Shown: positions 31,670-34,587, counted from the stretch's first letter. The stretch: DNA of 64,000 nt from an uncultured Chlamydiae bacterium (GCA_963828125.1 CAWHDP010000002.1:192001-256000), one strand, 5' to 3'. Numbers and translations are program-made. Notes: a model not told the origin generated them from the sequence alone.

Positions 31670-32083
31670 ATGAAAAGAGCGCTCGTTGTTTTGATTTTAC
31701 TTTTTGGGGCGTGTCTCGATGCTCGGGTGATTGAACTGACAAAGGCGAATTTTAGCCAAGTGGCCGAATCGCAAATCCCTGTCATTATCGATGTGAAAGC
31801 CTCCTGGTGCGGCCAATGCAAAATGATGCAACCTGTGATGGAAGAGGCGAGCCAGAAATACCAAGGCAGGGTTTTATTTGCAGCCATCGATATCGATTCT
31901 CAAAATGAACTTGCAAACTCATACGACATCACATTGCTTCCCACCATTTTGTTCATCAGGGCAGGAGAGAGAGTTCCCACGATGAAAAATGTCGGTGCGA
32001 TGAGCAAAAAAGACTTCGAGGCTAGGATCGAAGAATTTTTGCGAACCTATGAGCCTATCCGCAATGTCGAGAGAAAAAGATAA
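31670..32083 (+). CDS. Thioredoxin-family protein with signal peptide (referred to here as trxA); last 11 aa encoded by a MITE
   Basis: ASWCGQCK active site; N-terminal MKRALVVLILLFGACLDA. Confidence 0.88.
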   Translation: MKRALVVLILLFGACLDARVIELTKANFSQVAESQIPVIIDVKASWCGQCKMMQPVMEEASQKYQGRVLFAAIDIDSQNELANSYDITLLPTILFIRAGERVPTMKNVGAMSKKDFEARIEEFLRTYEPIRNVERKR

Positions 32084-32212
32084 GAGGAGATTTCGGGATG
32101 ATTTTCTTGATTTTTGACGAGAGAATATTCTTGAATATTCTCGAGGAAAAAAGGACGAAAAGCGCCCGAAAGATCCCCAGATTTGTTGCCCCACATTGCG
32201 GATAGGCTCATA
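32048..32212 (+). mobile_element. Family-B MITE, 165 bp including TA ends (left copy)
   Basis: 20-bp terminal inverted repeats TATGAGCCTATCCGCAATGT; inverted copy at 34423-34587 with 11 mismatches in 165 by manual alignment. Confidence 0.9.
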
Positions 32213-32386
32213 CTGTCCCTAAATTCTCCGCCCGTCTTATACCGATAAATTTCCAAAACGCGCTTGGCAGGCGTTATCCAGTTATATTGAAATAATATTA
32301 ATATAGTCTATGTATTATTTTTTGTATTGAGTATATATTTATAAATATAGTACAATATAATAAATAATTTAAATTATAGACGTAAA

Positions 32387-34414
32387 ATGAATCAAATTAA
32401 TACATCACATAAAACCTCAGCAATTGAAAACATAGAACGTAACCCCCAGCCAGAAGTCGCAGAGGCTATTAAGAACATTCGACAAAAGGGTGCCAATATC
32501 GCGGCAGTATTTAAATCGTTAAGCCCAAATCTACAGAATAATGTTTCGGTTGCTACTGAGGCAATTCGATATAGTTCGCCGGGTATTGTTCCGAACGTGT
32601 TTCAACAATTGTCTTCCCAGATGCAAAATAATATTTCGGTTGCTACTGAGGCAATTCGATATAGTTCGCCGGATATTGTTCCGAACGTGTTTCAACAATT
32701 GTCTTCCCAGATGCAAACAAAGTCAATAGCTTTAATTGCCTTAGGAAGAAATAGCGAAGTATATGAGCATCTCCACGCAACATTAAAGACTGATTTAGAT
32801 ATTATCCGCCAAGTTTTGGTAAGCTCTACTGGAAAAGCATTTTGTAAACACAACATGCAGGCATTGTCTAAGCATCGAGATTATCGGATGATTGTTGGGT
32901 TAGCATTGCAGTCCATTCCCTCAAATGATTCGGATAGGGAGATGCAAAAGATACTCAAGCGACTGGATCAAAACATGCAGAGAGACCCAGTCATTGCGGG
33001 TATTATAAACACAAAAAAGAATCCTCAAAAATTTCAAGAAATGGAAGATAGCAATGCGAAGAAGGTATCTATTGCTATTCAGACGCTTAAAAAGAGTGAG
33101 GATGCGGAGCAAACATTTTTATCATTACCGGCAGAGATTCGAAATCATCCTCAAGTTGTTGTTGAGGTGCTTCGCAGAAGTGGAAATGTAAAAAACACAT
33201 TTTTATCATTACCGGCAGAGATTCGAAATGACTATCGATTTGCCAGCATCGCCATACGGAAAGATTATACGATATATAAAGATCTTTCTCAGGAGTTACA
33301 AGAAAATCCTGTCATGATCGAAACGACCTTGATGGCTTCTAAAGGAAAGGTGTTTTTCACACATCCCAATTCCTGTATGATTAATAATCCGAAGCTACTG
33401 GAATGCGCATGGAATCAGATCCAATCAAACCGAATGGGGCACTTTAGTACGCAACGAACGTTGATATATCAGATGGCAAGTTCAGCGACGAGAGTAAATC
33501 CTATATTTATTCAGTGCCTATTGAAAAACATGAGTGACAGAGATAGGTGGGACCTATACCGTATAAGGGGAGCTCAAGACTTAGCATATGTTGTACCTAT
33601 ATTGGAAGGAAGTAGCTCCTCAAATGCTGTATCGATATTCATTGACACGGGGGGGAGATTAGCCGGCAATAGGGAGGTCATATTACCGCTAGTGGGGCGC
33701 GCTGCTGCACACGCAATTCCTAGGATATGGAAGGAGATAAGCCAAGAAATGCAGGAGGATCCAGAAATTATTATATGTGTATTATCAAAGATGTCAGAAC
33801 TATGCTTTGATCCATATTGCAGAGATGTGATAAATTCGATATCTAAAGATGTATGGAAAGATAAGAACGTGATGATACGTCTATTAGAACGTTCTTCTGG
33901 CGACTGGCCGTGTTTTTCAATAATCGACAAAATGGACGCTCAATTAAAAGACGATATAGATATTTTTAAATTGGCAAGCCCAAAAATATCGTCAGGGAAT
34001 CAACGTCTCCTGTTGAGCAAAACAGGCTCAAAAATAAAGGATAATCGGCAGTTTATTCAATTTTTATTGAGACAATCATTTGACCGTGGGGCAGTACTAT
34101 CGATATTCGAATGGATGTCTCCGAACCTACAGTGTGATCAGGAAGTTGTTTCTTGGTTTGTACAACAAGTCCCCGCCATAATCGAGGAATACGGGTTAAA
34201 AGACAATAAACGTATTGTGCTTGCTTGTGTCGAAAAACAGGGTTTAGCTCTTCAATATGTCGGCCCACTCATGCAGAATGATCCAGATGTGGTTCTTGCT
34301 GCCATCACGCAAAATAGGGCTGCTGCCGCATTTGTCGGCGGAGAGGCGAAGAAAGATCCGAGGGTGTCTGAACTTCTGAAGAGTTTCAATGCCACCAATG
34401 GTTCATCAAGTTAA
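32387..34414 (+). CDS. DUF4116-like helical repeat protein, putative effector
   Basis: C-terminal KDNKRIVLACVEKQGLALQYVGPLMQNDPDVVLAAITQN; many degenerate L(S/P)xE(L/M)(Q/R)xD repeats; AT-rich. Confidence 0.72.
   Translation: MNQINTSHKTSAIENIERNPQPEVAEAIKNIRQKGANIAAVFKSLSPNLQNNVSVATEAIRYSSPGIVPNVFQQLSSQMQNNISVATEAIRYSSPDIVPNVFQQLSSQMQTKSIALIALGRNSEVYEHLHATLKTDLDIIRQVLVSSTGKAFCKHNMQALSKHRDYRMIVGLALQSIPSNDSDREMQKILKRLDQNMQRDPVIAGIINTKKNPQKFQEMEDSNAKKVSIAIQTLKKSEDAEQTFLSLPAEIRNHPQVVVEVLRRSGNVKNTFLSLPAEIRNDYRFASIAIRKDYTIYKDLSQELQENPVMIETTLMASKGKVFFTHPNSCMINNPKLLECAWNQIQSNRMGHFSTQRTLIYQMASSATRVNPIFIQCLLKNMSDRDRWDLYRIRGAQDLAYVVPILEGSSSSNAVSIFIDTGGRLAGNREVILPLVGRAAAHAIPRIWKEISQEMQEDPEIIICVLSKMSELCFDPYCRDVINSISKDVWKDKNVMIRLLERSSGDWPCFSIIDKMDAQLKDDIDIFKLASPKISSGNQRLLLSKTGSKIKDNRQFIQFLLRQSFDRGAVLSIFEWMSPNLQCDQEVVSWFVQQVPAIIEEYGLKDNKRIVLACVEKQGLALQYVGPLMQNDPDVVLAAITQNRAAAAFVGGEAKKDPRVSELLKSFNATNGSSS
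32537..32716 (+). repeat. Intragenic tandem duplication, 2 x 90 bp
   Basis: Units 32537-32626 and 32627-32716 differ at 2 positions. Confidence 0.95.
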
Positions 34415-34422
34415 GGGCAAGT

Positions 34423-34587
34423 TATGAGCCTATCCGCAATGTGGGGCAAAAAATCTGGGGATCTTTCGGGTGCTTTTTGTCCTTTTTTCCTCGAGAATGT
34501 TCAAGAATCTTCTCTCGTCAAAAATCAAGAAAATCATCCCGAAACCTCCTCCCATTTTTTTCTCCCCACATTGCGGATAGGCTCATA
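34423..34587 (-). mobile_element. Family-B MITE, 165 bp including TA ends (right copy, inverted)
   Basis: 24-bp terminal inverted repeats TATGAGCCTATCCGCAATGTGGGG; inverted relative to 32048-32212. Confidence 0.9.

What the first reader, a model, noticed from the sequence alone, without database searches (positions are those of the whole stretch)
32048..34587. Transposase-less composite element: two inverted 165-bp MITEs carry an effector-like gene into the trxA stop codon
Seen: two family-B copies (32048-32212 and 34423-34587; TIR TATGAGCCTATCCGCAATGT; 11/165 mismatches) bracket an AT-rich promoter and a DUF4116-like gene. The left TA is in frame in trxA (ACC|TA), and the base after the right-hand TA is G. 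Deleting the whole block plus one TA therefore gives ACC TAG, a stop codon about 20 bp from the convergent RND gene stop. Deleting only the left MITE gives TAC, which is not a stop. Known: TA duplication with TIRs is typical of IS630/Tc1-mariner elements and their MITEs. Inference: the block inserted as one MITE-bounded composite cassette mobilised in trans.
Basis: partly seen in the sequence, partly recalled or inferred. Interest (0 to 1): 0.82.

Follow-up and report, generated by a model that had tools for sequence, protein, structure and literature searches.

The report
Two IS5-type MITEs flanking orphan gene
Two copies of a small gene-less jumping element sit on either side of an orphan gene in an environmental chlamydia; they belong to a widespread family likely moved by IS5-type transposases, and they probably landed separately, so the proposed gene-carrying cassette is possible but unproven.

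Summary
The two inverted 165-bp repeats are real (11 mismatches). The proposed mechanism is mostly not supported. Among 69 two-ended copies, the core (GARCCTATCC ends, about 160 bp) carries an identical 2-bp repeat in 56 (AT in 50); the TA…TA reading fits 10. Orthologue tests at two other sites back AT. IS5-family (IS427-like) elements in this genome and in relatives share the terminal 8–10 bases and the 2-bp duplication; the resident IS630 has other ends. With an AT duplication, removing the block gives no stop in the thioredoxin gene. No empty site was found in five runs or in relatives. Each copy has its own AT duplication, the two share no private mutation, and the xerD–RND slot holds unrelated genes without this MITE in relatives. 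Most likely two separate insertions (0.55); a true IS5-driven composite remains possible (0.28). MITE-bounded composites are known (IMU, TIME-COMP). Unchecked notes of this scan report similar IS5-type hairpin MITEs in other environmental chlamydiae. New family member of a known kind; modest interest.

The parts
32051..32209 (+). Left family-B MITE core, 159 bp, 17-bp perfect terminal inverted repeat, one long hairpin
32049..32050 (.). AT target duplication, outer copy of the left MITE (inside the thioredoxin reading frame)
32210..32211 (.). AT target duplication, inner copy of the left MITE
32280..32386 (+). AT-rich (88%) region upstream of the orphan gene; probable promoter region, but promoter-like matches are not above chance (11 found, shuffles 7.2 +/- 3.0)
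32387..34414 (+). Orphan 675-aa gene with DUF4116 repeats, 40.6% GC, GC3 0.38 against 0.52-0.62 in neighbours; no paralogue in the genome; best-scoring stretch of all 149 listed non-self relatives lies in the C-terminal third
32534..32713 (+). In-frame tandem duplication of 2 x 90 bp (97% identical) in the orphan gene
33072..33239 (+). Older in-frame repeat of 2 x 84 bp (70%) in the orphan gene
34424..34425 (.). AT target duplication, inner copy of the right MITE, 9 bases after the orphan's stop
34426..34584 (-). Right family-B MITE core, 159 bp, inverted relative to the left copy, 21-bp perfect terminal inverted repeat
34585..34586 (.). AT target duplication, outer copy of the right MITE, 22 bases from the RND stop
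31670..32083 (+). Thioredoxin-fold gene (CGQC active site, hydrophobic N-terminus); its last ten codons and its stop come from the left MITE; lacks the N-terminal domain found in most orthologues
30714..31592 (+). XerD-like tyrosine recombinase (name from recall of its motifs), left anchor of the variable slot
34609..37668 (-). RND efflux permease (MdtB/MdtC-like), right anchor of the slot; ends 1 to 12 residues earlier than the 18 orthologue ends printed

Best explanation
Two copies of a chlamydial hairpin MITE, likely moved by an IS5-family (IS427-like) transposase that duplicates two bases (usually AT), probably inserted separately on either side of an orphan DUF4116 gene that had likely entered the variable xerD-RND slot without them. 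Shown: the repeat family, its ends, its 2-bp duplication, IS5 elements with matching termini and the same duplication, and a variable slot in relatives. Inferred: that these transposases move family B; that both copies date from one old burst in this lineage; that they arrived separately. The left copy replaced the thioredoxin's last codons. The simplest way to fit the orthologue end is that it landed on the stop and one base was later lost, or that a small adjacent deletion followed (untested). The pair now has the shape of a composite that could be moved, but nothing shows that it was.
For: Duplication: 56 of 69 two-ended copies have an identical 2-bp flank (50 AT; 3 TT, 1 GT, 1 AC, 1 AA), and 6 of the 9 copies with AT on neither side still match, which a terminal repeat cannot give; TA…TA fits 10 of 69. 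Of 15 long frames whose stop is supplied by an element end, the AT model restores the stop at the same codon in 11 and the TA model in 1 (background 59 and 3 of 138 ends). In this genome, an 85-bp copy inside a cyoA-like gene comes out in frame only with a 2-bp duplication, and an MFS gene keeps the orthologue end (4 of 5 orthologues within one residue) only under AT. Partner: 8 two-ended IS5-type elements of 811-921 bp among 24 loci examined begin GA(G/A)…TATC, 7 of 8 with an identical 2-bp flank; the 7 two-ended spans of this type in G000 all have one (6 AT, 1 AG). Their transposase hits PF01609 and NF033580 (108 of 110 bits). Separate arrival: each copy has its own AT/AT; the two share no site that sets them apart from other G000 copies; they differ from the genome majority by 2.5% and 3.8%, against 0-4.8% for six other remnants and 8.8% for one. 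At least 13-18 remnants exist, and some pair within 2.4 kb is expected with P 0.14 for 13 copies. 104 of 107 low-GC ORFs of 300 aa or more have no B copy within 500 bp. In relatives xerD lies within about 1.5 kb of the RND end in 10 of 24 RND loci, the thioredoxin in 0 of 24, and other ORFs fill the slot in several. None of 36 slot loci has a B copy beside the thioredoxin or RND; the one hit is 11 kb away.
Against: Two of the three full-length copies in 2.37 Mb lie within 2.4 kb of each other (P about 0.006 under uniform placement, chosen after the fact). This is the only one of 107 low-GC ORFs with B on both sides. The TA-composite reading gives the modal thioredoxin end, whereas the AT readings give tails of 17 (composite) and 30 (left only) residues after EFL, so my model needs an extra small event. 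A second inverted pair (2 of 162 mismatches) brackets 611 AT-rich bases with a 68-aa ORF in G121. No IS5 element with the full 17-bp B end was found. The resident IS matches only 8 of 10 terminal bases, a level reached by chance somewhere in a 3-kb locus, so only its position at the exact ends plus the shared duplication carries weight.
Confidence: 0.55

Rival explanations
1. True transposase-less composite moved by the IS5/IS427-type transposase: two B copies first flanked the orphan gene elsewhere in this lineage, and the block then jumped by its outer ends into an AT between the thioredoxin and RND genes.
For: Two of three full-length copies 2.2 kb apart; the only low-GC ORF of 107 with B on both sides; outer flanks AT/AT in a CT-AT-AG context that fits the family's preferred target; no donor copy of the gene in the genome; a second inverted pair in G121; MITE-bounded composites are known to move (PMC13367494 Introduction).
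Against: The empty site would make the thioredoxin read 15 codons on into the RND gene's antisense strand. There is no empty site in five runs or in relatives. The copies share no private change. A 2-bp duplication cannot tell the models apart, and the target score is additive, so it gives the same total for both. The similar-looking cassette at G000 C1:14949-18340 does not rejoin one gene.
Confidence: 0.28
2. One reading: a composite with TA duplication, moved by an IS630/Tc1-mariner transposase into the thioredoxin stop codon. A variant has both AT pairs carried over from an earlier site, hiding the stop.
For: It restores EFLRT*, the modal orthologue end, and leaves a 21-base gap to the RND stop. 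All four window ends read T-AT. An unchecked note of this scan (e1-9949427) describes carried-over flank bases in another IS5-type MITE family.
Against: TA…TA fits 10 of 69 copies, and both-sided T/A is no commoner than chance (12 seen, 16 expected). The TA reading breaks the cyoA-like frame and the MFS end. The two IS630 of G000 have unrelated ends. The one case of B ends around an IS630 transposase (L125) is an IS630 with its own TA flanks sitting inside a B copy.
Confidence: 0.07
3. MITE-driven rearrangement: B copies were present first, and adjacent deletion, inversion or recombination between B copies brought the orphan gene here or trimmed the thioredoxin and RND ends.
For: Most G000 copies are truncated; both neighbouring genes have atypical C-termini; no simple removal restores the thioredoxin end under AT.
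Against: The orphan gene is whole, with its upstream region. There is no reciprocal junction elsewhere in the genome. Neither copy looks like a mosaic at the 11 diagnostic sites.
Confidence: 0.1

Closest known systems
IS5 family, IS427 group, and MITEs derived from IS5-family elements
   Same: Partner elements of 811-921 bp with 11-16 of 16 matching end bases, 2-bp direct repeats, PF01609 + DUF4096 transposase, often in two frames with an A-run. The IS427-group entries in Table 2 of PMC3281130 are 832-865 bp, mostly with 2-bp repeats, and the text describes two ORFs with a frameshift motif (passages).
   Different: The preferred dinucleotide here is AT; the passages I read give the repeat length, not its letters. 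Only the first 8-10 bases are shared with family B. Group membership was not tested with a tree.
TIME-COMP / integron mobilization unit (IMU) composites
   Same: Two MITE copies, direct or inverted, bracket a gene and no transposase; movement in trans has been shown for these (PMC13367494 abstract and Introduction).
   Different: Those have Tn3-type ends and 5-6-bp outer duplications that mark joint movement. Here the ends are IS5-type, the duplication is 2 bp on all four ends, and joint movement is not shown.
YPAL/RU-2 of Yersinia and Rickettsia palindromic elements (RPE)
   Same: About 105-168 bp, long stem-loop, in-frame fusions to host genes (PMC2229807, parts 1-2 of 3 read); family B has one in-frame insertion in G000.
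   Different: YPAL duplicates 3-26 bp and RPE has no established duplication. No sequence comparison was run; a resemblance of ends is from recall only.
TA-duplicating MITEs (Correia/NEMIS, ERIC, RUP with IS630-Spn1)
   Same: Size, terminal inverted repeats, hairpin (PMC2229807).
   Different: Family B duplicates AT, not TA, and its ends do not match the resident IS630.

Membership tests
IS630/Tc1-mariner MITE | TA target duplication | tested here: not met
   10 of 69 copies; frame tests fail
IS630/Tc1-mariner MITE | Ends shared with an IS630 element | tested here: not met
   Two IS630 in G000 have other ends; L125 is an IS630 nested inside B
Bacterial MITE | Short, no transposase, terminal inverted repeats, dispersed copies | tested here: met
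   159 bp, 17-21-bp perfect TIR, 13-18 remnants in G000, end motif in 33 of 103 family genomes against 4 genomes for the reversed control
Bacterial MITE | Target-site duplication | tested here: met
   2 bp in 56 of 69; 3-5 bp in 4 of the other 13
IS5-family (IS427-like) MITE | Terminal sequence shared with an autonomous IS5-family element | tested here: met
   8 of 10 bases at both ends of the G000 element, 10 of 10 at ends in L219, L221, L223; full 17-bp end not found
IS5-family (IS427-like) MITE | Same duplication length and preference as the partner | tested here: met
   7 of 8 relatives' elements and 7 of 7 G000 spans with an identical 2-bp flank, mostly AT
IS5-family (IS427-like) MITE | Partner falls in the IS427 group by phylogeny | not tested
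   Only profile hits (PF01609, PF13340 below cut-off, NF033580 108 of 110 bits), size and two-frame layout
IS5-family (IS427-like) MITE | Mobilisation by that transposase in trans | not testable with these tools
   Needs a transposition assay
MITE-bounded composite (TIME-COMP-like) | Two copies of one MITE around cargo, no transposase | tested here: met
MITE-bounded composite (TIME-COMP-like) | Duplication at the outer ends only | tested here: inconclusive
   AT at all four ends; both models predict this
MITE-bounded composite (TIME-COMP-like) | Empty site, or the same block at a second site | tested here: inconclusive
   None in five runs, 24 RND loci, 9 thioredoxin loci or the metagenome scan; closest relatives are only about 62% identical in the thioredoxin
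TIME-COMP in the strict sense | Tn3-type ends and 5-6-bp duplication | tested here: not met
   2-bp duplication and IS5-type ends
Secreted chlamydial effector | Secretion or host target shown, or homology to a known effector | not testable with these tools
   Only DUF4116 repeats; no NCBIfam hit; Atlas neighbours are DUF4116 clusters

The most novel reading that the evidence does not exclude
An IS427-type transposase picks up pairs of hairpin MITEs as composite cassettes and so delivers orphan, host-interaction-type genes into variable slots of environmental chlamydial chromosomes; this block and the G121 pair would be the first examples of a non-Tn3, AT-targeting MITE composite in Chlamydiae.
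Probability: 0.28. Interest if true: 0.5.

Novelty: new member of a known kind. Interest (0 to 1): 0.27.

Why it matters
If the block did move as one, it would show a route by which chlamydiae gain orphan genes without leaving a transposase at the site, and it would extend MITE composites beyond the Tn3-type cases. PMC13367494 (Introduction) states that none bounded by other MITEs had been reported in Enterobacteriaceae; I recall MITE-flanked integrons in Acinetobacter, not checked here. If the copies arrived separately, the value is a well-defined MITE family with a likely partner and a corrected duplication. It also shows that a T-AT-A context can mimic a TA duplication and mislead an IS630 assignment. 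The ends often supply host stop codons, which may explain how copies are tolerated at gene ends.

Tried and rejected
Empty-site searches: contigs of five runs showed no joint skipping the block (low depth, contigs only, apparently the same strain). No RNA holder was listed. The metagenome scan with the thioredoxin gave only two distant loci, which were not used. Short-form thioredoxin homologues: only the window's own protein. IS630 as partner: rejected. L125, with B ends around an IS630 transposase, is a nested insertion. ISL2/Harbinger-type transposase PF13359: no match over the cut-off in 5 genomes including G000. G005 C126 (L126) looked like a 2.5-kb element, but the left match is coding sequence. 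Close pairs at G000 C1:209526/210723, C1:339288/341686 and L052 are tandem duplications that include their flanks. G000 C1:14949-18340, two inverted IS5 right ends around 3.4 kb, has outer flanks that do not rejoin one gene. The target-site score cannot separate the models because it is additive. Nearness of copies to gene ends (38 of 62 within 30 bp or in frame) had no null model and is not used. Perfect ends despite 11 differences are not significant (P 0.064). Rfam: nothing at threshold. Plasmids: no match. Viral contigs: 12 single-end matches, none with a paired end. Promoter and terminator scans were not above chance. Literature: no paper held DUF4116 + chlamydia, MITE + IS5 + non-autonomous + Chlamydiae or MITE + IS5 family + AT dinucleotide + duplication. 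One search listed two papers; passages of PMC3733652 did not describe this family, and PMC2575882 was seen as a listing only. Passages of PMC12730594, PMC3189936 and PMC3196728 added nothing decisive. No supplements were read; subscription papers are not covered.

Full report
Observation. The window is G000 C2:192001-256000 of a 2.37-Mb genome. Most records with the same end motif are labelled Chlamydiae or Chlamydiales, or are unlabelled or 'Verrucomicrobia' bins; one is a chance match inside a cyanobacterial gene. The two inverted repeats, their 11 mismatches, the AT-rich stretch and the 675-aa DUF4116 ORF are as described. The four junctions lie inside contigs of run X1, which may be the assembly's source. 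The repeat folds as one long hairpin (z -10.3) and matches no Rfam family.

The family. G000 holds 18 remnants by one profile and 13 by a broader one; three are full length. The end motif occurs in 33 of 103 genomes of the family; the reversed control occurs in 4 genomes. From the loci held at that point and the two G000 contigs I collected 69 two-ended copies, keeping identical ones once. The conserved core starts GARCCTATCC. The two bases outside it are identical on both sides in 56 of 69 copies: AT in 50, TT in 3, and GT, AC and AA once each. Four of the other 13 have 3-5-bp direct repeats. The TA…TA reading fits 10. T at position -3 is only a target preference: both-sided in 12, with 16 expected.

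Independent checks of the duplication. Of 15 open frames of 120 codons or more that end on an element-supplied stop, the AT model restores a stop at the same codon in 11 and the TA model in 1. The background is 59 and 3 of 138 ends, and some of these frames are probably not genes. In G000, an 85-bp copy in a cyoA-like gene can be removed in frame only with a 2-bp duplication, and three close orthologues lack the insert. An MFS gene ends within one residue of 4 of 5 orthologues under AT and would run on for 175 codons under TA.

The partner. The two IS630 in G000 have unrelated ends. A scan for the terminal nine bases turned up an IS5-family element in many mostly broken copies. Its ends match 8 of 10 bases of the B end. 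All 7 two-ended spans of this type carry an identical 2-bp flank (6 AT, 1 AG); they include a separate 237-bp MITE and one span made of two right ends. Among 24 loci of related transposases, 8 were two-ended elements of 811-921 bp; 7 had identical 2-bp flanks and three had ends matching 10 of 10 bases. The transposase hits PF01609 and NF033580 just under its cut-off. Size, 2-bp repeats and the two-frame layout fit the IS427 group as tabulated in PMC3281130 (passages); no tree was built. Whether G000 still makes an active enzyme is unknown: the two-ended copy has two frames around an A-run, and the single-frame copy lacks its 5' end. That these enzymes move family B is an inference.

The thioredoxin stop. 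Of 11 orthologue ends, 6 stop two residues after the EFL-type motif, 2 after one, and 3 later (+3, +4 and a long tail). Under AT, the composite gives +17 and the left copy alone +30. It is weakened because 38 of 59 ends with this flank are followed by A or G, so a TA reading often yields a stop, and because the family does not duplicate TA. A copy landing on the stop, as in several relatives, followed by loss of one base or a short adjacent deletion would reconcile the facts; this is untested.

The slot. xerD lies within about 1.5 kb of the RND end in 10 of 24 relatives' RND loci, and directly convergent with it in five genomes of the genus. The thioredoxin lies in none of the 24 (flanks were short and some contigs ended). 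The closest relative, G011, has xerD-thioredoxin followed by other genes. Other ORFs fill the slot in several relatives, and none of 36 slot loci has a B copy beside either anchor gene. No relative or run shows the predicted empty site.

Composite or separate? For composite: two of three full copies are 2.2 kb apart (P about 0.006, after the fact); this is the only one of 107 low-GC ORFs with B on both sides; and G121 has a second inverted pair around a small ORF. For separate: some pair this close has P 0.14 among 13 remnants; 104 of 107 low-GC ORFs have no B nearby; each copy has its own duplication; the two share no private site; and they have drifted from the genome majority (2.5% and 3.8%) about as far as other remnants, which points to one old burst rather than a recent joint arrival. 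I put separate insertion at 0.55, an IS5-driven composite at 0.28, rearrangement at 0.10 and the TA/IS630 model at 0.07.

The cargo. It has no paralogue in G000. In 23 of 102 family genomes there are weak matches, all but one to the C-terminal DUF4116 repeats. In the 50%-cluster library, the best stretch of every listed non-self hit lies in the C-terminal third. The Atlas model is of modest confidence, with DUF4116 neighbours. Low GC and orphan status suggest acquisition or fast evolution; nothing shows secretion.

Comparison and verdict. MITE-bounded composites that move in trans are known (IMU, TIME-COMP; PMC13367494 abstract and Introduction), as are hairpin MITEs at gene ends and in frame (PMC2229807, parts 1-2 of 3). 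My searches found no paper on this family; the library lacks most subscription papers and no supplements were read.

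Noticed in passing
window 2527, 16517-16565, 18445-18493, 20138-20186, 29030-29078, 45254-45341, 56024-56072: A second, more abundant palindromic repeat (family A; 167 end matches in the genome). One copy appears to interrupt a B remnant at G000 C2:310365.
   Followed up: no
G000 C2:1640736-1641861 and related copies: IS5-family element whose 3' part carries short repeats and, in some copies, a 153-aa GxxExxY-type passenger gene (name from recall); one copy fuses it in frame to the transposase N-terminus (C2:442434-443282).
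   Followed up: partly
G000 C1:366326-366562 and C2:879626-879862: A further 237-bp MITE with the same terminal bases and AT duplication.
   Followed up: partly
G000 C1:14949-18340: Two inverted IS5 right ends bracket a small HTH gene, a DNA methyltransferase-like gene and a restriction-nuclease-like gene (by eye); the outer flanks do not rejoin one gene.
   Followed up: partly
G000 C2:891014-891098: An internally deleted B copy sits in frame in a cyoA-like gene and adds 29 residues near the N-terminus, as Rickettsia RPEs do.
   Followed up: yes
L128 (G121 C41) 1815-2748: Two inverted B copies, 2 of 162 mismatches, around 611 AT-rich bases with a 68-aa ORF that starts with a hydrophobic stretch; a second composite candidate.
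   Followed up: partly
L125 (G064 C2) 2259-3536: An IS630 element with a whole 347-aa transposase inserted at a TA inside a B copy.
   Followed up: yes
window 31670-32083: Most orthologues of this thioredoxin carry an extra N-terminal domain of about 130 aa behind the hydrophobic leader; the window's and G003's proteins lack it.
   Followed up: no
window 27631-28764 and 40347-41681: Two more low-GC orphan genes without Pfam hits; the first lies about 265 bp from a family-A copy.
   Followed up: no
G000 C1:338936-343696 and C1:208718-211108: Tandem gene duplications in which each unit includes a B remnant.
   Followed up: no
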